Assembly (NCBI GenBank): GCA_016840035.1
Contig: JAEOTC010000086.1
Span: forward strand, 115,175 to 147,174
Length of the DNA stretch: 32,000 nucleotides
Reading direction: 5' to 3'
Origin: Candidatus Hodarchaeota archaeon
GTDB taxonomy: Archaea > Asgardarchaeota > Heimdallarchaeia > Hodarchaeales > Hodarchaeaceae
Every line of letters begins with the position of its first letter. Within the stretch, counting starts at the first letter, position 1. Below the pieces are notes generated by a model. It made no database searches. It worked only from the letters and a program-made list of their open reading frames with translations, and was not told the DNA's origin. This document shows, piece by piece, positions 11,176 to 31,647 of the stretch. The position numbers were made by a program, and so were the translations under genes.

Positions 11176-11520
11176 ATGGCACTCCCTGAACTCTCACCTG
11201 CTCAACAAGAACAACTAGTCCGATTTCGAACCTTAGAACAGAATATTCAGAATCTCCGCATTCAATTAAATGAGATAGAAAGAGCTCTCTCGGAAATAGA
11301 AGTTACAAAAAAGGAGTTACTAAATCTCGAAGGAGATACAGAAGTTTGGAAGGCTGTTGGAGGCGTTATGTTTCCAAAAAAGGCCCAAGATGTATTAAAA
11401 GAATTAACTGAGAAAGGAGAATTACTCGAAATCCAGAAAAAAGGGCTTTCCTCACAAGAAAAACAAAATGTTGAGCGTTTTGAAGAATTACAAAAGAAAC
11501 TAAGTCAAGATCTTGGATAA
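11176..11520 (+). CDS. pfdB: prefoldin beta subunit
   Basis: Coiled-coil/beta-hairpin/coiled-coil layout with EGDTEVWKAVGGVMF in the hairpin. About 114 aa. Confidence 0.8.
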   Translation: MALPELSPAQQEQLVRFRTLEQNIQNLRIQLNEIERALSEIEVTKKELLNLEGDTEVWKAVGGVMFPKKAQDVLKELTEKGELLEIQKKGLSSQEKQNVERFEELQKKLSQDLG

Positions 11521-16509: not shown

Positions 16510-16938
16510 GTGAAATTCTTGGCTACTTTTGAAAACATGACATTAGGCGATAATAATGGATATAATTCAATGGAACAGGTTCAAAAAATTATTGATGGTC
16601 TTGGAACGGTAAAAGGCGTAAAAAAAGTTCTACTAGTAACTGAGGAAGGTTTTCCTATAATATCTGCTAGAACCTTACCTATGTCAGACGAGGTGGAGAC
16701 TGTTGTATCAGCAATGGTAGCAGGTATTGTGAGTACATTTTCAAGTGCATGTATTCAGCTAAATTTGGGAGATCAAGTGGATTTCATTCACGTTCAAACA
16801 CCTATAGGATTAGGAATTATATCAAAGGTACAAAGTACAATTCTTGTATTAATAACCGATTCTAATGTAAAATTAGGTTTGATGCACTATTTAGTTACAT
16901 CCACCAAGATGAAACTTCTTAAAACAAGGGAATTTTGA
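16510..16938 (+). CDS. Roadblock/LC7 (MglB-like) domain protein
   Basis: VKKVLLVTEEGFPIISA (strand-strand), ETVVSAMVAGIVSTFSSACIQL (helix), DFIHVQTPIGLGIISKVQSTILVLITD (three strands). The start is uncertain: GTG 16510, TTG 16519 after an AGGTGA Shine-Dalgarno sequence, or ATG 16537. Confidence 0.7.
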   Translation: MKFLATFENMTLGDNNGYNSMEQVQKIIDGLGTVKGVKKVLLVTEEGFPIISARTLPMSDEVETVVSAMVAGIVSTFSSACIQLNLGDQVDFIHVQTPIGLGIISKVQSTILVLITDSNVKLGLMHYLVTSTKMKLLKTREF

Positions 16939-17060: not shown

Positions 17061-17552
17061 ATGATGAGAATTGTCATGATAGGTGAATTTATAGTGACTT
17101 TGAATGAATCCCAGTTACAACTTTTTCCTGTTCCTTGTACATCAGGAATGGAACCGAACTGTATACTTGATCCTGATCACCCGTGTTGTGAGAACATAAA
17201 ACGCGAAACTATTGAGTTTAAAAATGGATTACTTGTGAAACAGGGAAATTCTGCAATTGTCTCTCTAAAATTATCTTTTAATGATCCTGTGGAAGAATTC
17301 ATATTTGACCGTATTCGGAATGATTTGTGGAGAAATCCTGGTAGTCATGTGAAAGTCATTAGAGCTCCAGAAGAAGGATTTCAGATTTCATTCTTCCTTA
17401 CGACCGAGATGGTGAAAACTCAGAATCAAAGGGAGAATCTGATTTCTTATTGGGAAGACTTTGCAATTAACATTCGCCAGGTCTTAACTGATGGTAAAAT
17501 GGCAGTCAACAAGTTTGTAAGAAGTAGAACGACAAGACTAAGACTGGATTGA
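17061..17552 (+). CDS. hypothetical protein (163 aa), Cys cluster near the N-terminus
   Basis: Intact ORF co-directional with the roadblock gene. Contains PCTSG..NC....HPCC. No family recognised. Confidence 0.35.
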   Translation: MMRIVMIGEFIVTLNESQLQLFPVPCTSGMEPNCILDPDHPCCENIKRETIEFKNGLLVKQGNSAIVSLKLSFNDPVEEFIFDRIRNDLWRNPGSHVKVIRAPEEGFQISFFLTTEMVKTQNQRENLISYWEDFAINIRQVLTDGKMAVNKFVRSRTTRLRLD

Positions 17553-18185: not shown

Positions 18186-18327
18186 ATATTATTTAAGCAT
18201 TTCATTTCATATGCTCAGAGCTTAATAAGCAGAGTTGAATAAAATATCCGAGAGTCTAGAAAACGATTCTAGGAAAGATGAGTGCGGAATATTGATTCGG
18301 ATAACTTATTATCATACTCATCCTAAA

Positions 18328-19836
18328 ATGGACAAAAGGTGCATTTCAAGAATGGTGAGACGATTTTCCACAACAAGTAGCGTTCTCCTCCTTACTCTAG
18401 TTCTCTTTGGAGGACTATTTTCTTTAGCAAATTCGATCACCTCGGCTCATACACACAGCTTACTAGATAGTGATTCTCCTAAAATCGCGATCTTTTATGG
18501 ATCAGCTAATGATAAAAGAATCAGTGAACAAATGACTTTGGATACAGAGATTGACGTAGAATATTATAATATCTCATCTGTTCTCACGAATCCTTCTTTC
18601 GTTTTTGATAATAATAGTGTGAAAGCAATTTGGTGGATCAACGAACTTCATCTACCAATCGATTTCTCTTTTGTGGGCGATCTAGCTTCCTGGGTGAAAA
18701 GTGGAAATGGATTGTTTATTCTCAATAAATACTTTGATAGGACACCTCTTGTGGAGCTTCAGAATTTAGGAATCAATGGTTATTGGCCTGAAGTATATCC
18801 CCTGAATCAGAGGTCAGATATGCATACTATTGACCTAGTGAATGAATCTCTTCCTTCTCTACAGCTTGAACAACTGTCTTATGAATTCAATGGTTCTTCC
18901 ACTTGGGTAGATTTACATGAGAAAACAGTTGTCCTTGCAGAGATTTCTCAACCAGAAAATGAGGCGTATCTCTCAAAATTCAATTCGGGTCTCTGGTTGG
19001 TACAAAATAAAGTTATTGTAGGTAGCTTTTCAGTGAATTTATCCCCTCCACAGACTAGGAATAAGTATGAACTATTGAGTGTACGTTCTACTTTAGCAAG
19101 TGGTCTAATAGATGTCCTAGGGGAGATTGCTCTCTTGACAACTGATAGTTTCTCAGATTCATCAGGAATGTTTCAATTTACGGGATTTGAACAGATAACA
19201 ACAGTTGTTATTATTTCTATTGTGGCAATTATCACTTTTATTGGCTTCATGAAGGTTGGTATTATCACCAAAGCTCGTGAGATCATAGTTGGAGTATTTA
19301 TGGGGACGTTTTTTCTACTGGCCCATATTGCTTATTCCCCCCAAAGAAGGAGAATTAGTGAGGATGATTTATTAGATAATGAAATGCGAATGCAAATTGT
19401 CGGATACTTGGAAGAGAAAGGTGAACAGGGGGCACATCTTCGTGAAATTCAGAGAATCCTTGGATGTGGAATCTCCTCCCTCTTATGGCATTTACAAGCA
19501 TTAGATGATTTCAATATTGTAACACACCATAAAATTGGGAAGTATCATCTATTTTACCTCACAGGTTCAGAATCACTACAAATATCAGAAATAGCATTAG
19601 CATTAAAGAGTGAGGTGGCCAAAGATCTTTGCAAAGTGTTATTACGGAATAAGAATCCCCTCTCTCTTTCAAAAATATCCTCTAACATCAATGTTCATCA
19701 TTCAAGCGTTCAACATCATATCAAACGACTTTCTGATTTAGGAGTAATTATGATAATTAAAGAGAAAAAGCGATCGACTTATATTATAAATCCAAATAGG
19801 GTAGAATCATTAGAAAAAGTCATGGAGGTAGCCTGA
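18328..19836 (+). CDS. membrane protein: N-terminal signal/anchor, about 270-aa sequon-rich extracytoplasmic domain, two hydrophobic helices, two C-terminal ArsR-like winged-helix domains
   Basis: MVRRFSTTSSVLLLTLVLFGGLFSLANS signal-like N-terminus. TM segments ITTVVIISIVAIITFIGFM and IIVGVFMGTFFLLAHIAY. wHTH 1 is MRMQIVGYLEEKGEQGAHLREIQRILGCGISSLLWHLQALDDFNIV. wHTH 2 is LSLSKISSNINVHHSSVQHHIKRLSDLGVI. The start is ATG 18328 or 18352; the tracked ORF starts at TTG 18235. Confidence 0.6.
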   Translation: MDKRCISRMVRRFSTTSSVLLLTLVLFGGLFSLANSITSAHTHSLLDSDSPKIAIFYGSANDKRISEQMTLDTEIDVEYYNISSVLTNPSFVFDNNSVKAIWWINELHLPIDFSFVGDLASWVKSGNGLFILNKYFDRTPLVELQNLGINGYWPEVYPLNQRSDMHTIDLVNESLPSLQLEQLSYEFNGSSTWVDLHEKTVVLAEISQPENEAYLSKFNSGLWLVQNKVIVGSFSVNLSPPQTRNKYELLSVRSTLASGLIDVLGEIALLTTDSFSDSSGMFQFTGFEQITTVVIISIVAIITFIGFMKVGIITKAREIIVGVFMGTFFLLAHIAYSPQRRRISEDDLLDNEMRMQIVGYLEEKGEQGAHLREIQRILGCGISSLLWHLQALDDFNIVTHHKIGKYHLFYLTGSESLQISEIALALKSEVAKDLCKVLLRNKNPLSLSKISSNINVHHSSVQHHIKRLSDLGVIMIIKEKKRSTYIINPNRVESLEKVMEVA

Positions 19837-19893
19837 CTGAGAGTATCCAACAATCTTTTACGATTCAGTATAGCTATTACCTTCTCTATTCTT

Positions 19894-21510
19894 GTGGTCT
19901 CTACATTCTTCACAGGAGCTATAGGCAACAGTAATTCGATCCAATTCTCCCAGTTGGATCCTTTTTACCAACAATCGCTATTTGGATTGAGATTTGACTA
20001 TAATCATGGGATTTCGCAAGAGAATTCTCTACAATTACACACGAATTTGGTTACTGGACAAGAAATTAATGATTCCATTGATCCTGATCCAATCATTGAT
20101 AATAACATTTCGATTATCGGACAGGACTCCTATGGAATAAAATCGTTACTTTTCGCTACAGAAAATATTGGAAGATCAGAGTTTATACCTCTATTTGGAA
20201 CCTTAGAATGGCAAGCTTCTCTTCCTTACTTCAAATATATCTCCATGTTTGATTTGCCTTCTGGAGAAAGTGTGATACTAACTCAAGACATCTTAGGTTT
20301 AGCCTTGAAGCTAGATGGGCAGAATTTCCTGACTGATCAATATCTAGTAGGATATGCCAATATACCTGTAGAATTCTTGGAATTCTTGTTTGAATCCCTA
20401 AATCCTGTTCAGATGGCTGAAAATTCGATTAACGGGTATACTTCTCCAATTGATATGCCAAATTTGTCAAATCCAAATCCAATGAGAATTTCTATTGAAG
20501 AAAATGACAATGAATTGATAATTACCATGACTTATACAAATATATCTTATTTATTTCAAACAAATCCAATTAGTATTGAACACCTTAGTAGTTTTAGTCT
20601 TTCAGAAAATTTTGTTTTGATTGAGTTCGAATCAATCTCCTACATCACGAGAATATTGAAATATTCCACATCAAGTAATACTGGAGTAGAAACACAAGTA
20701 GAAATGAGTGTTGGGAGGATTCGGAATTTGTTAATCAATGAGAAACTACCATCAGAAGTAAGTTGGGATTCAGCATCAGAAACACATATCGTAAAAAAAT
20801 ACGAAGACTTGATCAACATTGATGAAACGATTTCATGGTATAAAGAGGTTGATATTGAAAAACGAATGGCTTTATTTAACCAAGCTTCTCTTTCATTTCT
20901 AGGTTCGCATAATCTAGGTGTGGTTTCTAACACTGAATCACAAAAGAATTCGTTTCTAAAAATTGATGGGCAAAATAGAACAAAAAATGAGTTATTACAA
21001 ATGGATCTCTCTGCTGAGAGAAATATTTCATTATATCAAGATAGCAATCTTCTCCTTTTGAATCAAATAAATGGCTATGATTATGCACTTCATCTGGAAC
21101 CAAACTTGCAACATTGGTCATTGTCACCTGTAAGTATAAAATCAATAGCATTGAATCAACATCCGAGTTTAAGTGGTAACATTTTATTTTTAGATCAGGC
21201 CTCTATTTTAAATCCGTTTTTGGTTGATGTTCTCCGACGTTTTACGGCTAATCTGTCTACTAGTACCCTTAGTGCAGAACAAATTCTAAAAACTGCCACA
21301 CTATATCTTACATCCGCGGAATATATTCAAGAGTATTGTATAAACTCATGGACTGGTTATCCCACAAAAATAAAATCACTTTCAACAGCAATACTTAATT
21401 CAAATAACTTAGAAGTTGGCCTATCAAGAATATCGTTCTTTCCACTCTTTCCTGGGTTATTATCGATATTTTTCATAACGGTTTACCAGACAAGAAAGAG
21501 ACGTATGTAA
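19894..21510 (+). CDS. large Asn/Ser-rich surface protein with C-terminal PGF-CTERM-like membrane anchor; start unresolved
   Basis: Many N-x-S/T sequons. C-terminus FFPLFPGLLSIFFITVYQTRKRRM has a motif, a hydrophobic helix and a basic tail. The first canonical start (GTG 19894) falls inside a hydrophobic segment that begins upstream of it. Confidence 0.5.
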   Translation: MVSTFFTGAIGNSNSIQFSQLDPFYQQSLFGLRFDYNHGISQENSLQLHTNLVTGQEINDSIDPDPIIDNNISIIGQDSYGIKSLLFATENIGRSEFIPLFGTLEWQASLPYFKYISMFDLPSGESVILTQDILGLALKLDGQNFLTDQYLVGYANIPVEFLEFLFESLNPVQMAENSINGYTSPIDMPNLSNPNPMRISIEENDNELIITMTYTNISYLFQTNPISIEHLSSFSLSENFVLIEFESISYITRILKYSTSSNTGVETQVEMSVGRIRNLLINEKLPSEVSWDSASETHIVKKYEDLINIDETISWYKEVDIEKRMALFNQASLSFLGSHNLGVVSNTESQKNSFLKIDGQNRTKNELLQMDLSAERNISLYQDSNLLLLNQINGYDYALHLEPNLQHWSLSPVSIKSIALNQHPSLSGNILFLDQASILNPFLVDVLRRFTANLSTSTLSAEQILKTATLYLTSAEYIQEYCINSWTGYPTKIKSLSTAILNSNNLEVGLSRISFFPLFPGLLSIFFITVYQTRKRRM

Positions 21511-21870
21511 TTAAATCAAACCCCACAATTATTTACCATCGGAATTTTAACACTAATAGATGTAAAAAATTTACATTTATTTAGAGTAGTTCCTTCACAG
21601 GTTAGCTAATAGAGAGATGAAATACTTTTTTACACGTCTTTGATAGTGTATCGACAGATAACAGCGAAATTATTAATTAATATGCAAATCTTCAGAGAAT
21701 GAACCTAAATTTAACCCCCGGATAGTTTCTCTATATGATATTGCGGATTTTCATAACATATGATGTTATAAGTTAAGGTTACTGGAGAGTACCTAGACTT
21801 TGGACTCGATAAATTTACTCTCGGAGAAACGAGAAAGATTTTCGAGAATTCCAAGATAGGTGTTTTAATA

Positions 21871-23655
21871 ATGAAGAAGAAACTTATTACGGGAAGTTCG
21901 GTAATCTTTTTACTGATACTTCTTACATTTACTTCTCCAGCTCAAGCCACGGATTATGCAGGGCATGATTTTAGTGAGGATCATTTTGCTGTTGAAATCG
22001 ATCTTTTCCCTAATCCTGCAGACCCTGACGTAATCTACGATTTTGGTACAGGAACTGGAGATGGAGACTCAGTTGAAGAAACTGATTTGCAATTCTTTAT
22101 GAGCTATATGAATCATAGTGGAATTGAAGTAGCTTACTCCGCTTTAGAAAAAATGGAACACTGGATAAAATTCCGTGATTTATTACCTACCGAAGTAGGT
22201 GAGCTCATTGATACTCTAGGTCCATTGGCACCTGAAGGCGCAGCAGAGGCTCTTAACTCAAACCTTGTTCATGTCAATGCAACAGCACCCTTCCAACAGT
22301 TAGTTCAACACTTTAACACTCCTTGGGGTACTGATGCCTTTGTAACAAATAATTTCATGACACTAGTTGCCTATTCTGGAGGAACTGGATCAGATCCTCT
22401 ACTTATGGACGCAGGTGATAATCTCTATATGGGTTATACTTTTGCAGTCCAAGAAGTGACAGATGCCCTTAACGCAGTCATGGCACCACATTATGAGATT
22501 CCTCATTTTGATTATGAAGCAAATTTTGAGCAAACTGCAGATGGATATACATTCGGTATCAATTATACCAATATGTTTGTCTTATGGCAGGATATTACCG
22601 TTCCCCTTCGTGGACCAGATTATTTAAATGCTGCGGGCCTTCAACTACCAGAAACTAAAGGAGTTATCTATGGACAAGATATTGTTGCCGCATCAGTTTT
22701 AGATCATCTTGCTTTTGAATATATTTTCAAAGTAGAACAAATTGATTTAGGAACTACTCCCTCAATTAAAGTTAACCTAGGAACTGTAGAGACAAGATAT
22801 CATATTGGTGAAACAAATTTACTTGTTACAAAAGATGATGCGACATTCATCTCAGATCATTCCGCCGATTGGCTTGGTTCACCTTTTACTGCAACACCCA
22901 GTTACACTTTAGATGTTCCTCTCGCTCTCCAAGGCCAAACTGTTGGTTCGTGGACTTTCCCAGCCAGTGTAACTCTAACTCTCTCAGAAATGGCTTTCTT
23001 TATCAACGATGATGCTAAAGTTAGAATGAGTATGGCTGATGCCTTTGGGTTAACTGTTGTAACTGCAACAAACTGGTTTGATACTCAAGTAGTAACAGAT
23101 CCTCAATATGCGACTCACTTAGATGAACCTGAAGATCCTAAAATTACTCTCGAAAGAGATGGAAATGAATTCTTCTGGACTAGTTTCAAAGATAAAATGA
23201 ACTATAAGTTAAGAGAGTTAAATTTTGATCCTTTCTTCGAGGATGACACTATTGATCGTGATGTGTATGTTACATTATTTGATCCAAGTGGTTGGTTTGC
23301 GGCTAATGTTGCTAAACCATATTTCCTTATCGAATTTTCACTTGCTTGGGGCTTTACAGTCTTCATGGCTTCAAAAATTGCACCAGAAATTGTTCATCCA
23401 GGAGCAGGTTCACATACAGAAGTGGTTAACCAAATCCTATATTTAACTTTCACTGAATTTCCAGAGTGGTTTGGTGGAGAAATCTATCATGATCCTTCAT
23501 ATTCTGCTGTTGCAGCGGTTGCTGCTCAACCAGAAACAACCACCGATAGTCCACCTGGAACTGATACGACTGACGCAGCCTTTCCAGGATTTGAATTAGT
23601 TTCTGTATTAGTTGCACTCCCTCTCATGTTTGCAGCATATCGAAAGAGACGATAA
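21871..23655 (+). CDS. acidic secreted cell-surface protein (S-layer/surface glycoprotein candidate) with PGF-CTERM-like sorting signal
   Basis: Sec signal MKKKLITGSSVIFLLILLTFTSPAQA|TD. Thr/Pro-rich linker QPETTTDSPPGTDTTD. C-terminal FPGFELVSVLVALPLMFAAYRKRR. AGGTG Shine-Dalgarno sequence 10 nt upstream of the ATG. Confidence 0.7.
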   Translation: MKKKLITGSSVIFLLILLTFTSPAQATDYAGHDFSEDHFAVEIDLFPNPADPDVIYDFGTGTGDGDSVEETDLQFFMSYMNHSGIEVAYSALEKMEHWIKFRDLLPTEVGELIDTLGPLAPEGAAEALNSNLVHVNATAPFQQLVQHFNTPWGTDAFVTNNFMTLVAYSGGTGSDPLLMDAGDNLYMGYTFAVQEVTDALNAVMAPHYEIPHFDYEANFEQTADGYTFGINYTNMFVLWQDITVPLRGPDYLNAAGLQLPETKGVIYGQDIVAASVLDHLAFEYIFKVEQIDLGTTPSIKVNLGTVETRYHIGETNLLVTKDDATFISDHSADWLGSPFTATPSYTLDVPLALQGQTVGSWTFPASVTLTLSEMAFFINDDAKVRMSMADAFGLTVVTATNWFDTQVVTDPQYATHLDEPEDPKITLERDGNEFFWTSFKDKMNYKLRELNFDPFFEDDTIDRDVYVTLFDPSGWFAANVAKPYFLIEFSLAWGFTVFMASKIAPEIVHPGAGSHTEVVNQILYLTFTEFPEWFGGEIYHDPSYSAVAAVAAQPETTTDSPPGTDTTDAAFPGFELVSVLVALPLMFAAYRKRR

Positions 23656-23880: not shown

Positions 23881-26451
23881 ATGACAAATATTGATCTTCT
23901 ATCAGATCCGATAAATCTAGTAATCTCTCTAATATTAACATTTTCCCCATTAATTGTTTTATTCATTCCATATCTGTATACTCGACGAAAGTCGGAAAAT
24001 TTTATCGCTACGATATTTAATCGGGCATATGTCGGGTTTGTGATTTTTTATATAGCGTATTTCATTTTTCCCAGTATTCTAAACTCATTTGTACCAGATC
24101 CGAATCAATATATTGATCAAGAATACTATCCAATTGCAGGAAGTTCTGGATGGACAACTGTATGGGATTCTGAATCAGTAATCACCCAAGGAGCAGTATC
24201 GGTACCTATACCACTGCTGATAAAGTATCTCTTTCAACATTTTTTTAACTCAATTGTGATATTTCTGAGTTATCCTGTAGTAATTCTCGCATTCGTCTTT
24301 GGTATTTCCCCTATAATTTCTATGTTGATTATTTTCTACCAGACTTGGACTGAAAAGCGGAATGAACTAAATCCAATCAAAAAATTAATCAAACGGAATA
24401 ATAAAGAAATTTCTCAACTCAAAAAGCAGTTAAAACACGCTAATGAATCAGAAGCTTATGAGAAGAACGTAGCTATTTCTGAATTTAAAACTGAAAATCA
24501 AGAATTGGAAAAACAACTTTCCGAAGCAAGATCAGTATCCCAACGTTTGCAAGAAATCCAATTCGAGCTCGAACACTCCCCGTTCCATGCTGTAATGAAA
24601 AGAGTAAAAGAGAAGAATTGGGATAATGAAAGAGAGTTATTGAAAGTTTTAATTGCGATATTACCCATTACATTATTTTTATTGATGACAATATTGCAGT
24701 TACTCGGAGAAACTGAAAACCCAAGCTTACTCCAAGGAACATCAATGGGGTGGTTTTTAGAAATTTATTTTGCCTATATCGCAACTCTAGTATTCAGTAT
24801 ATACCTAATAAAGGCCAGTCTATTATCAAGAAAAGGTAAGTTCTTGGGTAATCAAATGTACATTGCAATGGTTCAAAGTTTATCCACTGTTGGTGCTTTT
24901 ATGTCGGGATTGGCCGTTATATTATTCTTGGTGCAATATTTCGATCAGATATTCGTTGTTTCGTACTTTATCGTCTATTTCATCATGGTTTCACTATTTT
25001 TCGTGCTTTTCTTAGATGTATTTGAGCCATTCTCTATATACATCTTGTTAAAGCTAATAGAGAGCTTTAAATCGTTTAGAGTATCAATACGGAGATTTAA
25101 TAGGATAAATATTGCGAAAAGTACCATTTCAGGTATTCTAGTTGGTGTTCTTCTATCTGTTGGTTTTTTAACATATCTAGTAATTGTCAAAAGTATTTTT
25201 TCTAACTTTAGTACTGTTCAATATTCGACATTTTTCTGGTTAACTCAGAATTATGCAAGTTTTCTACTAGCAGCAACATTAGTTTTAATAATTAGGCGCT
25301 GGAATTGGAGTGTTATCGGAACTAGCACCATTACATATTTGTCTATATTATTTGTAAGTCTTTTCATAATTCGATGGTATTTTGAAGAGTGGTATATATT
25401 CCTAGGTTTCAGTGAAGGTGACCTATATCCAAGCTATCAAGGAGAGATTCTAGTTGCACCCTTTCTTCAGGCTACTTCGGTTTTAGGAACTATTGACCTA
25501 AACTGGTTAACTGCTGTATGGAAAGGTGGAACATATGGTGACTTTCAATTTATCTTACCTGAGTTACGGCAGATACCTGTGATCTGGCAAGGATCTGGAG
25601 GTCAATTTTTACAAGCTCTCTCAATCCCCTATAACTTATTTCATCCCTTGGCAATCCTTCTTATATATGGGGGTATTTTATTCCTAGCTGGTAAACAATT
25701 TCATGTCAGAACACAAAAAGGAGAAGAAAAAACTCAATATAAGTCAATTTTTTCAGATGTCACCCGTTTACTCAGTACGGATGAGCTAGAATCAAAATCT
25801 GACATTCTTTTAATCGCTGCAACTCCAGCTAAGGATGAAGAAAACGGAAAATTGATTGATAAAGCATGGCTGAATTCAGAAAAAGGAAGTTTCCTTCGTG
25901 ATGCAATTACTGGCCAAATGCAATCGATTTCTAAACTGATAGAGAAGACTGGACTTTCAATTGATGAAATCCATTCCATTTTAGATGAAGTGACATATGA
26001 CGCAGACGTACCTTTCAATCAGATTATTACTCTCTGGCATCGGGAATTCTCATATTCATTCGAAGAAGTAACTATCGATTCACTTCATGTAATGATGCTG
26101 GATGGGCGCGCGGTTCTTTCTCACACATTTGGAGAAGAATCACAAGTAGAACCAGCATTAGTAGCTGGATTATTTTCTGCCATTACATCTTTTGCAAAGG
26201 AAGCTGTTCGTAGTGAACAGTTACTCAAGACTATTGACCATGGGGATGTGGTTCTTACGATCGAGTATGCCAAATGGGTATTCGCTGCGATTTTTGCTGA
26301 CAGTACATCCACTGAATTACGTAAAAAATTAGGTGAATTTTTGAATGATTTTGAATCAAGGCATAAGAAAACCCTTCCTAAATGGTTAGGAGATTTAGAT
26401 GCATTCACGGGAGAAACAGAGATGATTCGGGAGCTCTTTCCTGGATCATAA
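23881..26451 (+). CDS. polytopic membrane protein (about 11-12 TM) with cytoplasmic coiled-coil insert and C-terminal longin/roadblock-like module
   Basis: Numerous 18-25-aa hydrophobic segments. Heptad-like charged stretch at aa ~160-250 (nt 24358-24630). C-terminal 125 aa (nt 26074-26448) has a strand-strand-helix-strand-strand-strand-helix pattern with PALVAGLFSAITSFAKE. GTGATGA Shine-Dalgarno sequence upstream. Confidence 0.7.
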   Translation: MTNIDLLSDPINLVISLILTFSPLIVLFIPYLYTRRKSENFIATIFNRAYVGFVIFYIAYFIFPSILNSFVPDPNQYIDQEYYPIAGSSGWTTVWDSESVITQGAVSVPIPLLIKYLFQHFFNSIVIFLSYPVVILAFVFGISPIISMLIIFYQTWTEKRNELNPIKKLIKRNNKEISQLKKQLKHANESEAYEKNVAISEFKTENQELEKQLSEARSVSQRLQEIQFELEHSPFHAVMKRVKEKNWDNERELLKVLIAILPITLFLLMTILQLLGETENPSLLQGTSMGWFLEIYFAYIATLVFSIYLIKASLLSRKGKFLGNQMYIAMVQSLSTVGAFMSGLAVILFLVQYFDQIFVVSYFIVYFIMVSLFFVLFLDVFEPFSIYILLKLIESFKSFRVSIRRFNRINIAKSTISGILVGVLLSVGFLTYLVIVKSIFSNFSTVQYSTFFWLTQNYASFLLAATLVLIIRRWNWSVIGTSTITYLSILFVSLFIIRWYFEEWYIFLGFSEGDLYPSYQGEILVAPFLQATSVLGTIDLNWLTAVWKGGTYGDFQFILPELRQIPVIWQGSGGQFLQALSIPYNLFHPLAILLIYGGILFLAGKQFHVRTQKGEEKTQYKSIFSDVTRLLSTDELESKSDILLIAATPAKDEENGKLIDKAWLNSEKGSFLRDAITGQMQSISKLIEKTGLSIDEIHSILDEVTYDADVPFNQIITLWHREFSYSFEEVTIDSLHVMMLDGRAVLSHTFGEESQVEPALVAGLFSAITSFAKEAVRSEQLLKTIDHGDVVLTIEYAKWVFAAIFADSTSTELRKKLGEFLNDFESRHKKTLPKWLGDLDAFTGETEMIRELFPGS

Positions 26452-26526
26452 TTTCTTAGACTAGGGAGGGTTTCTCCATCTTTGTATTCAAATCAATGGG
26501 CAGTGGAACGAATCACGGAATTTAGG

Positions 26527-29145
26527 TCATTCTATCTGAGCTATCACACAGAGAAAGGTATCTGGCGTATATATTGATACTGACACAATAAGATTTGCAC
26601 TTCCAGATGAAAGAATATATTTTGGTCCCTTTAAGGGGTTTGTAGTCTTTCTATTTGGTATAAAACCGGCTTTAGTTAATAATTTTAAGCTTTCAAGCAA
26701 TTCTGATTTAGTATAGATGTTAACGCTTTGAGTATTTCGTTTAATTTGAATATTTGATTCAAAAATAATGTCACGGATCAATATATCTTCTTTAAGTGCA
26801 TCTGGAATATCATTTTCATGAATTTCTGAAATCAACGGCATGATCCAATTCTCAAGGACTTCATTTGGAAGATCAATTGTGGATTCTAGAGAAGGGTCAA
26901 CCTCGAAGGCTTTAGTAAAAAAGTCTTCTTTTTGATCTGGTTCTAATTCTTGACGAACAGCGATTTCTTCTTTCTCAAAACTCGGTAATTTACGATTTTT
27001 ATCTTGTGGTACTAAAATACCCTTTTTAAATAGTATTATAAGTTGCTCAAAGATTTCATTATATTTAAATTTTGAACTAAATAAGCCATGATTTACTATT
27101 TCCTTAATAAACAAACCTTCAGTGTTAGCCAACTGATTATTTTGCTCTTGAATAACTTGAAGTAGTGGATTATCTGAAACTTGCTCTTCAGTATCTATTC
27201 TAAGTGCAAGCGGTCCTAATACAGATAAACCAAGAATATTATCAAGGTCTTCTATTGCTGATTGAAATGGATCTAGTTCTCCAACGAAATCAGTAAGTAG
27301 ATCCTGGAATCTCTTTTCAAAAGCGTAAACAAATTCCCGTCCTCGTTTTCTCAGACGTTTACTGAATCTTGGAGGTCGTTCTAATATAAATGCTGTTACT
27401 GAGTAATTTCCTTCAATAGTAACAATTTTAAAAGTCCTATCGCCAATATCCTCGGTAAAGTCTCTTACTATAGTTCGATCTTTTATTTCCTCACTTTTTA
27501 ATTCCGTAAATAAGCTTGAAATTGCTGTTAGGAAGCCAGAAACTAATTGTGGATCAACTTTGAGCATTGAAGTCCCAAATTTAAACAAACAAATACCAGT
27601 GAGCTTGTGAGTTATCATAATATGTTCACAATAAAGAAGATTCATTAGATCCTTGTAATCTATAGGATTCATAGGTGAAAATCCCAGGGAGGGTTCGACT
27701 TTGATTTCGTGAAAAATCTCGTCCTTTTTACTAGCACTCACTTGTTCTTCACGTATCCCAGACTTAGCACGAAAAATCGGTATTAAATCTGGCATACTAT
27801 CCTTTTGAGGATCAATATGTTTGGTTAACCTTGCTCGAACTTTAATTTTGACTGGACTCGAAATGCTATCTTGGAGACCCACAATTAAAGCTTCTCCTTT
27901 TGTTAAATGGGGGAGAACTGAAACTGTATCTGTATTTATTCCCTCCATTAAACGAATTTTTGTTATATCTTTTTCGGATTTGATTCGGAGAGCTACGAGA
28001 GTATTCATGTTCGCGATTATATTATCTGGCAGATCTCCTGGTCTTTGTGACACTAGCATCTCGTAAATACCAAATTTTCTCCCTTCACGCGCGATTTGTG
28101 CAAGAATATCGCTTTTTTGAACAAATCTATGTGCTTCCTCCAATATTATCAAGATTTCCTGTTCATGTGGAATCTCTCCCTGAATTTTTTTCTGAAATAT
28201 TTGAGTTAGTAATTCATTCACTAATGTATTCCTTTTTTTCTCATCTGTGTATTGATCAAGTCGAATGATCGATATCTGGTTTTCACGAACTAGAGAGGAA
28301 ATATCTATTTCTTCTTTATACACAGATTGTTTTTTAAGAGTGTTAATTTTCGAAATTAAATTTTCACGTGTTTGTGTGTGCATATCAGAATTCTTTATAT
28401 TGGTTAAAATAGATTCCAGATTATCTGGCTGGTCAAGAATGTTCGTGAGTGCATTTTCTTGAGCGGTTGATAATTCCAATAGTCTTCTTAGTTTTGGTAA
28501 ATCAAATTGGGTTCCTAATCCAATTGTTCCTTCTCCAAAAATTAGTAACCTTTCAGCGAACCCTTGTGGGTAATATCCTTCGTAATCTAAAGAACTGATT
28601 TCACTTCCTGTATTTTCTAATCCAAGTCCCCAATATTCGTTGTGAACGTCGAAGAGTAGTATCGAGGTGTTTTGGATTTTCAAAAGAATCTCCTCCAATA
28701 AAACACCAATACTGTATGACTTTCCTGCCCCCGTACTAGCTACACATAGAACATGTCGTTCTAAAAATTTAGGTGATATTAAGAATGGATCCGTTGATGA
28801 GGGAGAAGTAACAATATCTCCTAAATATATCCCCCCTTCTCCATCATAGGATATAATTTTTGAAATCAACCCTTTTGGAGGAATAGACACTTCTGAATCC
28901 ATTGAGATAGGAATTCGACATGGTTTTAAGCGAAATTCATCCATTTCAAATTCCCCCAGAATATCTGCAATCGCTTTCATCTCCCCTTCTTTTTCTTGTG
29001 ATAATCGGAATATTTGAGCAATTAGATGCTTATTACTTGACCGATTCTTGTCAAATAAAACAATATAATCTCCTTCGTGGAAAATATTCTCGTCAATATC
29101 CGAAAGAAAAGTAATACGGGAGGTGGTGGTTTTTGTAATTTTCAT
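26527..29145 (-). CDS. HerA/FtsK-superfamily P-loop ATPase (HAS-barrel plus DUF87-like core) with about 430-aa C-terminal extension containing a longin/roadblock-like module
   Basis: N-terminal barrel-like 95 aa. Walker A VASTGAGKS (nt 28717-28740). Walker B ILIILEEAH (nt 28129-28155). AREGRKFGIYEMLVSQRPGDL and LTKGEALIVG are typical of HerA. The module at aa ~500-640 (nt 27226-27648) carries PQLVSGFLTAISSLFTE. Confidence 0.8.
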   Translation of the reverse strand: MKITKTTTSRITFLSDIDENIFHEGDYIVLFDKNRSSNKHLIAQIFRLSQEKEGEMKAIADILGEFEMDEFRLKPCRIPISMDSEVSIPPKGLISKIISYDGEGGIYLGDIVTSPSSTDPFLISPKFLERHVLCVASTGAGKSYSIGVLLEEILLKIQNTSILLFDVHNEYWGLGLENTGSEISSLDYEGYYPQGFAERLLIFGEGTIGLGTQFDLPKLRRLLELSTAQENALTNILDQPDNLESILTNIKNSDMHTQTRENLISKINTLKKQSVYKEEIDISSLVRENQISIIRLDQYTDEKKRNTLVNELLTQIFQKKIQGEIPHEQEILIILEEAHRFVQKSDILAQIAREGRKFGIYEMLVSQRPGDLPDNIIANMNTLVALRIKSEKDITKIRLMEGINTDTVSVLPHLTKGEALIVGLQDSISSPVKIKVRARLTKHIDPQKDSMPDLIPIFRAKSGIREEQVSASKKDEIFHEIKVEPSLGFSPMNPIDYKDLMNLLYCEHIMITHKLTGICLFKFGTSMLKVDPQLVSGFLTAISSLFTELKSEEIKDRTIVRDFTEDIGDRTFKIVTIEGNYSVTAFILERPPRFSKRLRKRGREFVYAFEKRFQDLLTDFVGELDPFQSAIEDLDNILGLSVLGPLALRIDTEEQVSDNPLLQVIQEQNNQLANTEGLFIKEIVNHGLFSSKFKYNEIFEQLIILFKKGILVPQDKNRKLPSFEKEEIAVRQELEPDQKEDFFTKAFEVDPSLESTIDLPNEVLENWIMPLISEIHENDIPDALKEDILIRDIIFESNIQIKRNTQSVNIYTKSELLESLKLLTKAGFIPNRKTTNPLKGPKYILSSGSANLIVSVSIYTPDTFLCVIAQIE

Positions 29146-29385: not shown

Positions 29386-30339
29386 TTGGGTACAGAATCT
29401 CTGAAATATGATATGGTTATTGTTGGTGCGGGGCCTGCAGGAATGGCCACAGCGATTTATGCGTCAAGGATGGGTTGGAAGACAGTAGTTCTTGATAAAG
29501 GAGCAGTGGGTGGACTAGCAGCAACTACACCCAAGATTGAGAACTATCCAGGGTTCAGTGAAATTACCGGAATGGAATTCGCCGATAGACTCAAAAAACA
29601 GGCTGAAAAATTCGGTGCGGTAATTAAGGAATTAACAGAGGTTACTGATATTAATCTAGGGGAATCTGAGATAGAAGTCTTTACTCCATCGGAGAACTTT
29701 CTTGCCAATGTGGTCGTTCTAGCAATGGGTACATCTCACCGACATTTGGGTGTCCCAGGAGAAGAAAAATTGGAAGGAAAAGGAGTTTCATATTGTGCTA
29801 CATGCGATGGACCATTATACGGATCTAGAAAAGTAGTTGTTGTAGGTGGGGGTAATTCCGCAGTCACAGAGGCTCTGTATCTTGATAATGTAGTGCGCGA
29901 AGTCTCTCTCATTCATCGTAGGGATCAATTACGGGCTGAGGAATCACTCCAGAAAGAAATCCTTCAAAACTCGAATGTTAATATGATTTGGGATTCAGTC
30001 GTGACAGAAATCATTGGGGATGAGATGTCTGGAGTAAAGAAGGTTACAATTAAAAATATAAAAACTGAAGAAGAAGAGCAGAAACGAGTTAAAGCAGTAT
30101 TTGTCGCTATCGGGATATTACCAAACAATGAACTCGCAAAGAAGATTGGAGTTAATTTAAGCGAAGATGGTCTAATTCTTGTAGATTCAAAACAACGTAC
30201 AAATATTCCCCGAATTTACGCTTGTGGAGATATTACTCCAGGTCAAGGCCAGATTTCTGTAGCAGTCGGAGAAGGAACAACTGCAGCAATTTCAGCGTTC
30301 CTTGATATGCGTGGTGGGGATTGGTACGGAACGGAATAG
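29386..30339 (+). CDS. trxB: thioredoxin reductase
   Basis: YDMVIVGAGPAG FAD motif, redox-active CATCDG, GGGNSA NADPH motif and ACGDI. TTG start. Confidence 0.9.
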   Translation: MGTESLKYDMVIVGAGPAGMATAIYASRMGWKTVVLDKGAVGGLAATTPKIENYPGFSEITGMEFADRLKKQAEKFGAVIKELTEVTDINLGESEIEVFTPSENFLANVVVLAMGTSHRHLGVPGEEKLEGKGVSYCATCDGPLYGSRKVVVVGGGNSAVTEALYLDNVVREVSLIHRRDQLRAEESLQKEILQNSNVNMIWDSVVTEIIGDEMSGVKKVTIKNIKTEEEEQKRVKAVFVAIGILPNNELAKKIGVNLSEDGLILVDSKQRTNIPRIYACGDITPGQGQISVAVGEGTTAAISAFLDMRGGDWYGTE

Positions 30340-30344
30340 AATAC

Positions 30345-30866
30345 ATGACGCGATGTTTCTTGCCGTCTAAAACCAGTACATCATCCATCGGTCTGCATAA
30401 GTTTTCAAATCATTTCTCCGCATCCCATTTATTGTTAACTGAAGATTTTTCCGAAGGCTTGCATGGACATAACTACTATGTTGAAGTGGAATTATTTGGA
30501 GAAACTAACAGTGATGGCTTAATTTACGATTTTCTCAGGCTGGATGAAATTATCCGTGAAATTCTTTCTCAATGGGATCATTATACATTAATTCCTAGTC
30601 AAAATGAAAACATCAACATAACAGAAGTGGGCGGTAATCTTGAAATTCGTGCTAGAAAGCGATTTTACTCGATTCCTCGGTCAGAAGTAAAGTTACTAGA
30701 ATGTCAAAATGTGACGGCTGAATATTTAGCGAGATCTGTAGCACTCCAACTAAAGGAGAAATTGCTTTCACTAAAATCAACGAAGGGTATTACCGAACTT
30801 AGGGTTGATCTGTGGGAAACCCCCCTCTATCATGCCTCTTTTTCCAGTCAACTAGAGCGTTTTTAA
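30345..30866 (+). CDS. 6-pyruvoyl-tetrahydropterin synthase (PTPS/QueD) family protein, Cys-less variant
   Basis: FSASHLL...LHGHNYYVEVEL Zn-binding His triad pattern and C-terminal VDLWETP. Start placed at ATG 30345, just after the trxB stop. Confidence 0.7.
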   Translation: MTRCFLPSKTSTSSIGLHKFSNHFSASHLLLTEDFSEGLHGHNYYVEVELFGETNSDGLIYDFLRLDEIIREILSQWDHYTLIPSQNENINITEVGGNLEIRARKRFYSIPRSEVKLLECQNVTAEYLARSVALQLKEKLLSLKSTKGITELRVDLWETPLYHASFSSQLERF

Positions 30867-31647
30867 ATTCCTTTTGTCCAAGTTTTGGAAATCCAGAAAT
30901 TTCTTCTCCAGAGTCTGTTAAATTAAACCGAATTCCATTGTGCAGTTGATAGTAAGAAGAAATTAAGGATTGGGCTATTTTCAGCTTCACTCGTTTTCTA
31001 GAGGTATTTTTAAGGATTTGAGAGCTATTTTTACTGTACTTTCCGATTTTTTCTCCAAAATCAAAACCAATTAAGCCTATAATAGGAGATTGAAAATGAA
31101 TTGCTAGAAAAATACCTCTATCACCATCTGTAAATCCACCAAAATTAAAGAGATTAGTTTTCAACTTATTCTGAGTTGTACCCCAAATTAATGGCTTTTT
31201 GTCCAGAAGGTGCGTCTCCTCAAAGAAGTCTTGAATGATCGTTCTATTGTCCCCATGAGCATGGATAAGTGCAATAGCACCTCTAGAAATCGCCCATCTA
31301 ATCGCTGACCATTCTCCATCTAAATCTGAGATTACTATATCAGGAATAATTTGATGCTGTTGAAATAAAGAACAGCTTCCATCAATAGCGATGATTTTCA
31401 AATCATTGATTATAGAATGTTGCACACAAAGCTCTAAATCTATATCAAGAGAAGGCCCAGCTCCCACCACTAAAATTGGATGTTTTAACACATATTCTAC
31501 TTTTTCCAAAATAAAATTTGCTTCATAAGGAAGCTTTTCATTTAGAAATGATTCCAATTGACGTGTGGACTTAATATCCTCTTTAATACTTAGATTTAGC
31601 TTTGCTACAATTTTTAAGTATTCATTATTCCATTGATCGATAAGCAT
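30799..31647 (-). CDS. mptE: MptE-like 6-hydroxymethyl-7,8-dihydropterin pyrophosphokinase (DUF115 family)
   Basis: VVGAGPSLD, IIAIDGS, VISDLDG and HAHGDN motifs as I remember them for the MptE/DUF115 family. Adjacent to a PTPS-family gene. Confidence 0.65.
   Translation of the reverse strand: MLIDQWNNEYLKIVAKLNLSIKEDIKSTRQLESFLNEKLPYEANFILEKVEYVLKHPILVVGAGPSLDIDLELCVQHSIINDLKIIAIDGSCSLFQQHQIIPDIVISDLDGEWSAIRWAISRGAIALIHAHGDNRTIIQDFFEETHLLDKKPLIWGTTQNKLKTNLFNFGGFTDGDRGIFLAIHFQSPIIGLIGFDFGEKIGKYSKNSSQILKNTSRKRVKLKIAQSLISSYYQLHNGIRFNLTDSGEEISGFPKLGQKEFKNALVDWKKRHDRGGFPTDQP

What the first reader, a model, noticed from the sequence alone, without database searches (positions are those of the whole stretch)
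26074..27648. Paralogous longin/roadblock-like module shared by the membrane protein (nt 26074-26448) and the ATPase (nt 27226-27648)
By-eye alignment of the two modules:

| Segment | Membrane protein | ATPase |
|---|---|---|
| first part | LHVMMLDGRAVLSHTFGEESQVEPALVAGLFSAITSFAKE | HIMITHKLTGICLFKFGTSMLKVDPQLVSGFLTAISSLFTE |
| C-terminal helix | ELRKKLGEFLNDFESRHKKTL..WLGDLDAFTGE | RLRKRGREFVYAFEKRFQDLLTDFVGELDPFQSA |

- In the segment P-x-L-V-x-G-x-x-x-A-I-x-S-x-x-x-E, 8 of 17 positions are identical.
- The two C-terminal helices share EF..FE.R......G.LD.F.
- The LxxGxxxxxxSF helix resembles the first helix of sybindin/TRAPP-type longin domains.
- The secondary-structure order (two strands, helix, three strands, helix) fits longin better than canonical roadblock.
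- Each module is accompanied by a helix-turn-helix-like segment. In the membrane protein SISKLIEKTGLSIDEIHSILDEV lies before the module. In the ATPase FIKEIVNHGLF..YNEIFEQLIILFKKGILV lies after it.

A longin-type domain fused to a HerA motor is an architecture I have not seen described.
Basis: partly seen in the sequence, partly recalled or inferred. Interest (0 to 1): 0.8.

Follow-up and report, generated by a model that had tools for sequence, protein, structure and literature searches.

The report
Shared Roadblock/longin module, HerA and membrane partner
A HerA-type ATPase and the large membrane protein encoded next to it in a Hodarchaeales (Asgard) genome carry copies of the same small Roadblock/longin-fold domain, which belongs to a large, apparently Asgard-restricted domain family with no model in the libraries searched and may dock the motor to the membrane protein.

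Summary
The C-terminus of the 856-aa membrane protein (nt 26035-26448) and an internal segment of the 872-aa HerA-type ATPase (nt 27217-27669, minus strand) are homologous: BLASTP E 4e-10, profile-profile probability 97.8%, E 9e-13.

An AlphaFold2 model of the ATPase copy (pLDDT 84) reads helix, two strands, helix, three strands, two helices. Foldseek matches it mainly to Roadblock/LC7 proteins, with longins just behind. The superfamily call holds. "Longin rather than Roadblock" is unresolved.

No Pfam or NCBIfam model in the copies used covers the module. A profile finds 880 protein clusters, and every named carrier checked is Asgard. The module usually follows the last transmembrane segment, or is fused to HerA, KaiC-like or Arf-family NTPases.

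The convergent ATPase/membrane gene pair persists down to 26-33% identity with partly changed flanks.

My best reading, which is inferred and untested, is that the module mediates protein-protein pairing that docks the motor to the membrane protein.

The HTH claims are not confirmed. This is a new variant of a known kind, of moderate to high interest.

The parts
23881..26451 (+). Polytopic membrane protein, 856 aa
   Evidence: ORF. About 55 orthologs at 60-87% identity in Hodarchaeales/Heimdall MAGs, plus distant ones at 27-36% identity. No Pfam, NCBIfam or PADLOC family.
23911..25692 (+). Transmembrane region, about 10 hydrophobic segments (aa 11-604), with a coiled-coil-like insert at aa ~165-235
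   Evidence: Kyte-Doolittle scan. This is a crude predictor and topology was not determined.
25693..26034 (+).
   Evidence: Poorly conserved: 52% mean pairwise identity. No HTH family hit. No match to the family's post-module helical element.
26035..26448 (+). Membrane-protein copy of the Roadblock/longin-like module (aa 719-856)
   Evidence: HMM envelope. Its core is the most conserved part of the protein: 95% mean pairwise identity against 72% for the TM core.
26527..29145 (-). HerA/FtsK-superfamily ATPase, 872 aa, convergent with the membrane protein gene
   Evidence: ORF. Pfam DUF87 at E 4e-16 (60 bits against a cut-off of 23) and HerA_C. PDB HerA chains at E 1e-18 to 5e-25. About 60 full-length orthologs, all in Hodarchaeales/Heimdall-type Asgard MAGs.
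27811..28800 (-). HerA P-loop core (aa 116-445) with Walker A GAGKS (aa 139) and Walker B-type EEAHRF (aa 336)
   Evidence: These motif columns are invariant in 50 orthologs.
27217..27669 (-). ATPase copy of the Roadblock/longin-like module (aa 493-643)
   Evidence: HMM envelope. AF2 model with pLDDT 83.7. Foldseek matches to Roadblock/longin proteins. As conserved as the catalytic core: 66.5% against 69.5% mean pairwise identity.
27001..27198 (-).
   Evidence: AF2 predicts four helices and a short strand, pLDDT about 80. It matches the family-wide post-module element at E 1.4e-10. No PDB or Pfam HTH match.
26530..26865 (-). C-terminal alpha/beta domain (aa 761-872) of unknown fold class
   Evidence: AF2 pLDDT about 93. 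Best Foldseek PDB E-value is 0.02. Found only in other HerA+module proteins.
18235..23655 (+). Three co-directional upstream genes (533, 538 and 594 aa). They travel with the membrane protein gene in close relatives and are context, not shown to be part of the system.
   Evidence: The 533-aa protein has three hydrophobic segments and a C-terminal HTH_20/TrmB hit. The 538-aa and 594-aa proteins end in a PGF-CTERM-like hydrophobic segment plus a basic tail. The same block is present in L001, L006 and L127 but absent in the distant pair L128.

Best explanation
Shown: the two segments are anciently diverged paralogs of one Roadblock/longin-superfamily domain. The domain is a ~140-aa alpha/beta sandwich in the order helix, two strands, helix, three strands, two helices. 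It belongs to a large, apparently Asgard-restricted domain family. In that family it usually sits after the last transmembrane segment of membrane proteins, or is fused to P-loop NTPases: HerA/FtsK-type, KaiC-type, and Arf-family small GTPases.

Inferred: like Roadblock and longin domains elsewhere (MglB dimers, LAMTOR pairs, Rag C-terminal domains on Ragulator), the module is a protein-protein pairing platform. In this locus the copy on the ATPase would pair with the copy on the tail of the polytopic membrane protein. That would dock the presumably hexameric motor at the membrane, so that ATP hydrolysis is coupled to whatever the membrane protein does. Translocation of a polymer across the membrane is the typical job of membrane-associated HerA/FtsK-type motors.

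The pairing itself, the cytoplasmic location of the membrane protein's tail and the substrate are all untested.
For: Homology: BLASTP E 4e-10; hhalign probability 97.8%, E 9e-13.

Fold: AF2 pLDDT 83.7, pTM 0.79. Foldseek PDB top hits are Asgard Roadblock2 9jq8 (2.8e-4), HBXIP/LAMTOR5, p14/MP1, MglB and dynein LC7, followed by VAMP7 longin and AP sigma subunits.

Family size and reach: 880 representatives at E<=1e-3 and 186 at E<=1e-10. Of 120 motif-selected GTDB loci, 110 carry a real module. All named carriers but two are Asgard MAGs or cultures, and another ~17 are labelled only 'archaeon'.

Architecture: 101 of 145 representatives have TM segments before the module and only 1 has one after it. 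12 have a Walker A motif. The module is fused directly N-terminal to KaiC in P0239 and P0254. Further HerA+module proteins exist: P0205, P0220, P0232, P0273, P0304, P0327. Three Heimdall-type ORFs are Arf GTPase plus C-terminal module fusions.

Linkage: the convergent ATPase/membrane pair is present in the window and in L001, L005, L006, L044, L049, L069, L078, L126 and L127. It is also present in L128, where the membrane protein is 33% and the ATPase 26% identical and several flanking genes differ.

Selection: the module core is the most conserved part of the membrane protein (95% against 72%), and in the ATPase the module is as conserved as the catalytic core.

Clustering: 21 of 116 module-bearing loci hold two or more module-bearing ORFs within about 8 kb.
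Against: No interaction was computed or measured.

The two genes are convergent, not co-transcribed. Most examples of the pair come from closely related, broadly syntenic genomes. MptE-like and PTPS genes persist on the ATPase side even in L128, so residual synteny is not excluded there.

A diverged ATPase homolog (P0062, L002) has no membrane partner on its 8-kb contig. Thor/Hermod homologs of the membrane protein have no HerA neighbour.

Foldseek E-values are modest (3e-4 to 3e-3) and TM-scores are 0.43-0.69 when normalised by target length.

No Roadblock or longin Pfam model reaches its cut-off. hhalign against the window's own bona fide Roadblock gene gives only 4.7% probability.

Clustering of module genes could simply reflect tandem duplication.
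Confidence: 0.55

Rival explanations
1. The module is mainly a platform for small GTPases, with GAP/GEF/effector-type function as for MglB, Ragulator, TRAPP and Mon1-Ccz1. The copies on the ATPase and on the membrane protein would each recruit an Arf/Rag-like GTPase that switches them on or off, and they would not bind each other.
For: The closest structural relatives are GTPase platforms. Three family members are Arf-family GTPase plus module fusions, a Rag-like layout. A diverged ATPase homolog has an Arf-like GTPase gene two genes upstream. Small GTPase ORFs occur in 22 of 129 fetched loci. GTPase-Roadblock and longin-GTPase fusions are documented in Asgard archaea (PMC10933270).
Against: No small GTPase gene lies next to the pair in the window, L001, L006 or L127. 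L128 does hold a 205-aa MMR_HSR1-type GTPase gene about 6.5 kb from the ATPase. None of the top 145 family representatives has a GTPase domain: all 12 Walker A motifs belong to HerA or KaiC-type ATPases. The 17% of loci with a GTPase is not clearly above what GTPase-rich Asgard genomes would give by chance; no baseline was computed. This reading is compatible with, rather than exclusive of, module-module pairing, as in Rag-Ragulator.
Confidence: 0.25
2. The module is a small-molecule or signal-sensing domain, working like GAF/PAS-type sandwiches. It would allosterically regulate the attached ATPase or relay signals from membrane receptors, without homotypic pairing.
For: The same alpha/beta sandwich is used by sensor domains. 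A GAF domain appears at rank 47 of the Foldseek list, E 3.3e-3. The architectures resemble signalling proteins: a large ectodomain, a TM segment, the module, then an effector such as KaiC.
Against: About 49 of the top 50 structural matches are Roadblock or longin proteins, not ligand binders. The most conserved motif, DPxL[IV]SGF[LI]xAIxSF, lies on the central helix. By my own recollection that helix contributes to the dimer interface in Roadblock proteins, not to a pocket. No ligand-binding family hit was found.
Confidence: 0.1
3. The shared domain is real, but the adjacency is incidental. The ATPase and the membrane protein would work in unrelated processes, each using a common Asgard adaptor domain, and sit side by side only through inherited synteny.
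For: The genes are convergent. The ATPase keeps synteny with TrxR, PTPS and MptE-like genes on its other side in several genomes, and PTPS and MptE-like genes remain nearby even in L128. The membrane protein family exists without a HerA neighbour in Thor/Hermod MAGs. P0062 lacks the partner on its contig.
Against: The pair survives in L128 at 26-33% identity. There the three upstream genes are absent and TrxR is replaced by a metallophosphatase gene.
Confidence: 0.2

Closest known systems
Roadblock/LC7 domains (MglB, LAMTOR2-5, Rag GTPase C-terminal domains, dynein LC7; Asgard Roadblock2, PDB 9jq8)
   Same: Best structural matches. Same helix, two strands, helix, three strands, helix order. 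Some family members sit C-terminal to an Arf/Rag-like GTPase, as in Rag proteins.
   Different: No hit to Pfam Robl_LC7 in 34 diverse members even at E<=10. The window's own bona fide Roadblock gene is not recognised by the module HMM (E 1.4). The module has an extra C-terminal helix and usually a ~65-aa helical appendix. It is embedded in large membrane proteins and ATPases rather than being a small stand-alone subunit.
Longin domains (sybindin/TRAPPC4, MON1/FUZ/HPS1 and INTU/CCZ1 longins, VAMP7, AP sigma subunits)
   Same: The core order of two strands, helix, three strands, two helices. Faint sequence hits: Sybindin 0.0032 in 2 of 34 members, Fuz_longin_1 8.9e-4, Intu_longin_1 0.2. Foldseek hits at E 1.4e-3 and upward.
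   Different: All sequence hits are below Pfam cut-offs. Longins rank below Roadblocks in the structure search. The model has an N-terminal helix that canonical longins lack.
HerA/FtsK-superfamily ATPases with partners (HerA-NurA DNA repair, anti-phage HerA systems, Ced DNA-transfer ATPases)
   Same: DUF87/HerA core with intact Walker motifs. Hits to HerA structures and to NCBIfam/PADLOC HerA models, and to CedD at 9e-16.
   Different: All NCBIfam equivalog cut-offs are missed by a wide margin, for example 106 bits against 970. No NurA, Mre11/Rad50, Sir2 or other known partner is adjacent. The 430-aa C-terminal extension (module, helical element, alpha/beta domain) is absent from the ordinary ~560-aa HerA homologs P0063-P0121.
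Rag-Ragulator (eukaryotic lysosomal membrane docking through stacked Roadblock dimers)
   Same: The proposed logic is the same: a membrane-attached Roadblock-type domain recruits a soluble NTPase that carries its own Roadblock-type domain. This is an analogy from established knowledge, not something tested here.
   Different: The NTPase here is a HerA-type ATPase (or KaiC-type in relatives) rather than a small GTPase. The membrane attachment is a polytopic protein, not a lipidated scaffold. No orthology is implied.

Membership tests
Roadblock/longin structural superfamily | Alpha/beta sandwich: a five-stranded antiparallel sheet with one helix on one face and two on the other | tested here: met
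   AF2 pLDDT 83.7 with elements H-E-E-H-E-E-E-H-H. The Foldseek PDB top-46 are all Roadblock or longin proteins, probability 1.00, E 2.8e-4 to 3e-3, target-normalised TM 0.43-0.69. Helix packing faces could not be inspected because no coordinates are available.
Pfam Robl_LC7 (PF03259) | Sequence match above the Pfam gathering score | tested here: not met
   No hit for either window module at E<=1. No hit for any of 34 diverse family members at E<=10. hhalign of the family profile against the window's own PF03259 protein gives probability 4.7%.
Pfam longin families (Sybindin PF04099, Fuz_longin_1 PF19036, Intu_longin_1 PF19031, Longin PF13774) | Sequence match above the Pfam gathering score | tested here: not met
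   Only sub-threshold hits in a few members: Sybindin 0.0032 (2 of 34), Intu_longin_1 0.2, Fuz_longin_1 8.9e-4 at 19.9 bits against a cut-off of 26.1.
Roadblock/longin functional class | Forms homo- or heterodimers through the central helix and an edge strand | not tested
   No multimer prediction or experiment was done. Indirect evidence only: the conserved central-helix motif, clustering of module genes and the conserved gene pair.
Roadblock/longin functional class | Binds or regulates a small GTPase | not testable with these tools
   The only support is architectural: three Arf-GTPase plus module fusions in Heimdall-type MAGs.
HerA/FtsK-superfamily ATPase (Pfam DUF87 PF01935) | Domain match above the gathering score, with intact Walker A and Walker B motifs | tested here: met
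   DUF87 at 60.1 bits against 23.2, and HerA_C at 24.4 against 22. GAGKS at aa 139 and EEAHRF at aa 336, invariant among 50 orthologs.
DNA-repair HerA (NCBIfam NF040819 / NF040937 equivalogs) | Score above the equivalog cut-off and a NurA/Mre11/Rad50 gene neighbourhood | tested here: not met
   106 bits against 970, and 87 against 800. The neighbours are TrxR, PTPS and the membrane protein.
Anti-phage HerA systems (PADLOC) | HerA together with a known effector partner (Sir2, DUF4297, etc.) | tested here: not met
   Only HerA models hit the ATPase. The membrane protein and the 538-aa and 594-aa upstream proteins have no PADLOC hit. The 533-aa protein hits only Csa3/CARF-type models through its C-terminal HTH.
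Winged helix-turn-helix | Three-helix bundle with a beta wing, matching known wHTH profiles or structures | tested here: inconclusive
   In the ATPase, aa 650-715 is predicted as four helices and a short strand. There is no wHTH among the top-50 Foldseek hits and no Pfam HTH hit. The membrane protein segment was not modelled. It has no Pfam HTH hit and no match to the family element.

The most novel reading that the evidence does not exclude
The module is the common connector of an Asgard-specific, Ragulator-like docking network. Polytopic membrane proteins and single-pass receptors with large ectodomains would use it to recruit HerA-type and KaiC-type ATPases and Arf/Rag-like GTPases to the membrane. 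The HerA/membrane-protein pair of Hodarchaeales would then be a previously unrecognised ATP-driven membrane translocation or remodelling machine in the closest known archaeal relatives of eukaryotes. It might serve the PGF-CTERM-like surface proteins encoded beside it.
Probability: 0.2. Interest if true: 0.8.

Novelty: new variant of a known kind. Interest (0 to 1): 0.58.

Why it matters
Roadblock and longin domains are the platforms on which eukaryotic small GTPases are regulated at membranes (Ragulator, TRAPP, Mon1-Ccz1). Their expansion in Asgard archaea is one of the arguments for an archaeal origin of membrane trafficking.

This finding defines a large, sequence-distinct branch of that superfamily. 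It has at least 880 clusters at 50% identity, appears restricted to Asgard archaea, and has no model in the Pfam and NCBIfam copies used.

Its fusion partners among the best 145 representatives are not small GTPases. They are membrane proteins and ASCE-type ATPases (HerA, KaiC). A few Arf-GTPase fusions found separately tie the family back to the GTPase world.

If the module mediates pairing, it gives a concrete, testable wiring diagram for how Asgard cells couple surface receptors and membrane proteins to cytoplasmic motors and switches. The cultured species Promethearchaeum syntrophicum MK-D1 and Lokiarchaeum ossiferum carry family members (L111, L024), so experiments are feasible.

If the module turns out to be just another adaptor domain, the result is still a useful domain definition and annotation for hundreds of 'hypothetical' Asgard proteins.

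Tried and rejected
- Searching the module alone in the word-indexed 5.8-billion-protein database gave one fragment. The exhaustive HMMER search was needed.
- Sequence searches of PDB with two family profiles found nothing relevant.
I replaced it with a degenerate DNA motif scan verified by a local hmmsearch.
- I tested whether the ~220-265-aa tails after the module are generally KaiC-like. Only 4 of 86 are.
- I tested whether the ATPase C-terminal regions recur in the large receptor-type proteins. They recur only in other HerA+module proteins.
- I tested whether the membrane protein's pre-module 'HTH-like' segment is a displaced copy of the post-module helical element. It does not match.
- Foldseek of the ATPase C-terminal 227 aa found no match below E 0.02.
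- A defence-system reading was rejected: PADLOC hits only generic HerA models and no partner.
- I looked for more module copies in the window. There are none.
- PF28006.1 is a newer-Pfam annotation precomputed for three membrane-protein orthologs. I could not identify it: it is absent from the local Pfam copy and from the literature. It is not annotated on the ATPase orthologs, so it probably does not describe the shared module.
- I considered a fused two-module AlphaFold run and rejected it. The tool reports no PAE or interface metrics, so the result would not have discriminated.
Full report
**Anatomy.** The window has about 35% G+C. The finding spans two convergent ORFs. One is an 856-aa protein at 23881-26451 (+). 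The other is an 872-aa protein at 26527-29145 (-). Exact copies, P0122 and P0002, lie on one 147-kb NCBI contig. All close relatives that carry a source name come from Hodarchaeales/Heimdallarchaeota, or are named only at the level of the Asgard phylum (Promethearchaeota), apart from one labelled Thorarchaeota. The (+) protein has about 10 hydrophobic segments between aa 11 and 604, followed by a 250-aa tail. The (-) protein has a HerA/FtsK-type P-loop core at aa ~116-445: Pfam DUF87 at E 4e-16 and HerA_C, and PDB HerA chains at E down to 5e-25. Its Walker A (GAGKS) and Walker B-type (EEAHRF) motifs are invariant among 50 orthologs. A 430-aa C-terminal extension follows.

**What fold is it?** Neither module hits any Pfam family at E<=1 or any NCBIfam model. 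Family profiles find nothing relevant in PDB by sequence. An AlphaFold2 model of ATPase aa 484-652, built on 49 aligned modules, has pLDDT 83.7 and pTM 0.79. Its elements are H14-21, E23-30, E36-41, H49-66, E76-84, E87-95, E99-105, H112-135 and H142-155.

Foldseek against PDB returns a coherent list at probability 1.00. It begins with Roadblock2 of Promethearchaeum (9jq8, E 2.8e-4), HBXIP/LAMTOR5, p14/MP1, MglB and dynein LC7. The VAMP7 longin and AP sigma subunits follow from E 1.4e-3. By my classification of the listed entries, about 40 of the top 50 are Roadblock-type, 9 are longin-type and 1 is a GAF domain. Target-normalised TM-scores are 0.43-0.69.

Sequence gives only faint signals, and these lean the other way. 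Sybindin scores 0.0032 in 2 of 34 diverse members, Intu_longin_1 0.2 and LAMTOR5 0.25. Fuz_longin_1 scores 8.9e-4 in a GTPase-fused member. All are below the Pfam cut-offs. hhalign of the family against the window's own genuine Roadblock/LC7 gene (16510-16938, PF03259 at E 9e-8) gives only 4.7% probability, although the alignment is in register.

My conclusion is that membership of the Roadblock/longin superfamily is well supported. The module is a separate sequence family, and the choice between Roadblock and longin is open. The model has both the N-terminal helix typical of Roadblocks and the two C-terminal helices typical of longins.

**How big is the family?** A profile of the two window modules plus one fragment was searched exhaustively against 1.84 billion representatives. 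It finds 880 proteins at E<=1e-3, 186 at E<=1e-10 and 15 at E<=1e-30. Their lengths range from 110 to 3025 aa, and the module sits at many different positions. Among the best 145:
- 101 have hydrophobic segments before the module, and only 1 has one after it;
- the lengths of the remaining C-terminal tails cluster at about 0, about 65 and about 220-265 aa.

Of the 86 tails of at least 55 aa, 79 share a conserved ~65-aa helical element directly after the module. The ATPase carries this element at aa 660-736, E 1.4e-10.

Partner domains found by Pfam are KaiC (immediately after the module in P0239 and P0254), DUF835/DUF7504, HerA/AAA_10/FtsK, and ectodomain repeats such as Big, FG-GAP and MG2. 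The full HerA + module + helical element + C-terminal domain architecture recurs in diverged proteins: P0205, P0220, P0232, P0304 and P0327. P0273 matched only the helical element, not the C-terminal domain. Ordinary ~560-aa HerA proteins (P0063-P0121) lack the module.

Local hmmsearch confirms a real module in 110 of them. All 10 failures are bacterial records, as expected for chance matches. The confirmed loci come from Loki/Promethearchaeota, Thor, Hel, Hermod, Odin, Baldr, Sigyn, Heimdall and Hod MAGs, and from the cultured Promethearchaeum syntrophicum MK-D1 and Lokiarchaeum ossiferum. About 17 are labelled only 'archaeon'. Two MAGs carrying a real module are labelled Thermoproteota (L073) and Deferrimicrobium (L105). 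The source names of ten representatives are also Asgard or uninformative. Three module-bearing ORFs (in L051, L095 and L113) are Arf-family GTPases (Pfam Arf at E about 1e-35) with the module at the C-terminus, a Rag-like layout.

**Is the gene pair meaningful?** The convergent ATPase/membrane pair recurs in Hodarchaeum mangrovi (L001), in CP070695 (L006), and in L044, L049, L069, L078 and L126. In CP070760 (L005) the membrane gene is interrupted by a run of N, but its module still faces the ATPase. These genomes are broadly syntenic: TrxR, PTPS and MptE-like genes lie on one side and a three-gene block on the other. That weakens the argument.

Two more distant cases carry more weight. In L127 the proteins are 50% and 29% identical and the neighbourhood is the same. 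In L128 the membrane protein is 33% and the ATPase 26% identical. There the three-gene block is missing and TrxR is replaced by a metallophosphatase gene, although MptE-like and PTPS genes remain nearby.

There are counter-examples. The diverged ATPase P0062 has no partner on its 8-kb contig. Thor/Hermod homologs of the membrane protein have no HerA neighbour.

Purifying selection is strong on the modules. The module core of the membrane protein has 95% mean pairwise identity against 72% for its TM core. The ATPase module has 66.5% against 69.5% for the catalytic core and 45% for the C-terminal domain. In addition, 21 of 116 module-bearing loci contain two or more module-bearing ORFs within about 8 kb.

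**The rest of the ATPase, and the HTH claims.** An AlphaFold2 model of aa 646-872 has pLDDT 78 and pTM 0.50. It shows a four-helix element with a short strand (aa ~650-712), a disordered linker (aa 726-758), and a confident alpha/beta domain (aa 761-872, pLDDT about 93). Foldseek finds nothing below E 0.02 and no winged-helix protein among the top 50. The ATPase's 'HTH-like' segment is therefore a real, family-wide conserved helical element, but its HTH nature is unproven. The membrane protein's 'SISKLIEKTG...' segment lies in a poorly conserved linker (52% mean pairwise identity). It has no HTH profile hit and does not match the family element.

**Mechanism.** Three things are shown: the homology, the fold class and the architectures. 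The rest is inferred. Roadblock and longin domains act as dimeric platforms (established knowledge for MglB, LAMTOR pairs, Rag C-terminal domains on Ragulator, and TRAPP/Mon1-Ccz1; also stated in PMC10933270). Here the same domain sits on membrane proteins and on soluble NTPases. I therefore propose that the module pairs with itself or with its paralogs, and that in this locus it docks the HerA-type motor to the tail of the polytopic membrane protein.

The strongest rival is that each copy instead recruits a small GTPase. The two readings are not exclusive, as Rag-Ragulator shows. A sensor-domain reading and an incidental-adjacency reading remain possible.

A defence role is unlikely, because PADLOC finds only generic HerA models and no partner. 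A DNA-repair HerA role is unlikely, because the equivalog cut-offs are missed by a wide margin and no NurA/Mre11/Rad50 genes are nearby.

**Novelty.** Expansion and shuffling of Roadblock/longin-superfamily domains in Asgard archaea is known. Liu et al. counted 130 asCOGs of the superfamily, described many fusions with signalling domains, and reported mostly lineage-specific architectures (bioRxiv 10.1101/2020.10.19.343400). Tran et al. described GTPase-Roadblock and longin-GTPase fusions (PMC10933270). Another study notes that Roadblock/LC7 is common in prokaryotes (PMC12962969). I found no paper describing a HerA or KaiC fusion, the membrane-protein partner, or this sequence family. I could not read the asCOG tables or identify PF28006. 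I therefore rate it a new variant of a known kind: a distinct family of a known superfamily in new architectures, with a plausible but untested docking role.

Noticed in passing
window 16510-16938 (+) and 17061-17552 (+): A bona fide Roadblock/LC7 gene (PF03259, E 9e-8, 142 aa) lies next to an ARPC4-like gene (ARP2/3 subunit 4, PF05856, E 2e-8). These are two classic Asgard 'eukaryotic signature' genes side by side, about 7 kb upstream of the finding.
   Followed up: partly
window 18235-23655 (+): A block of three co-directional genes lies upstream of the membrane protein. The 533-aa protein has three hydrophobic segments and a C-terminal HTH_20/TrmB domain. The 538-aa and 594-aa proteins have no family hit and end in PGF-CTERM-like tails (…FPLFPGLLSIFFITVYQTRKRRM; …FPGFELVSVLVALPLMFAAYRKRR). 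The block is conserved in L001, L006 and L127 but absent in L128.
   Followed up: partly
L051 4295-7287 (+): Three tandem Arf-family GTPase genes of about 317 aa each, in an uncultured archaeon. Only the first has a recognisable copy of the module at its C-terminus (E 4e-16). The C-terminal halves of the other two are not recognised.
   Followed up: partly
L105 26-2233 (-) and L073 6647-7435 (+): Real module copies (E 8e-39 and 2e-16) occur in MAGs labelled Candidatus Deferrimicrobium (a bacterium) and Thermoproteota. This could be mis-binning or horizontal transfer. They are the only carriers with a non-Asgard label.
   Followed up: no
L005 11740-12357 (-), record CP070760.1: In this chromosome-level Heimdall-type assembly the membrane protein gene is cut by a run of N. 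Only its C-terminal module was called, as a 111-aa gene, which makes the ATPase look unpaired.
   Followed up: yes
P0122, P0123, P0139 (orthologs of window 23881-26451): The precomputed annotation lists PF28006.1, a Pfam accession newer than the local library. It is not listed for the ATPase orthologs, and I could not find out what it is.
   Followed up: partly
P0231 (424 aa); L121 1-7484 (-); L068: One protein carries two modules in tandem, at aa 14-171 and 179-345. Some loci have three module-bearing genes in a row. This suggests paralog arrays, possibly heteromeric sets.
   Followed up: no
L002 1616-2176 (-): An Arf-like small GTPase gene lies two genes upstream of the most diverged ATPase ortholog, P0062, which lacks the membrane partner on its contig.
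   Followed up: no
window 13246-15450 (-), 11176-11520 (+), 29386-31647: Housekeeping context: a Cdc48/VCP-type AAA ATPase and prefoldin beta, then a thioredoxin-reductase-like gene, a PTPS-like gene and an MptE-like gene. The last three are named from the Pfam labels of their syntenic counterparts in L001, since the window ORFs themselves were not scanned. They stay syntenic with the ATPase in L001, L005, L006 and L127.
   Followed up: no
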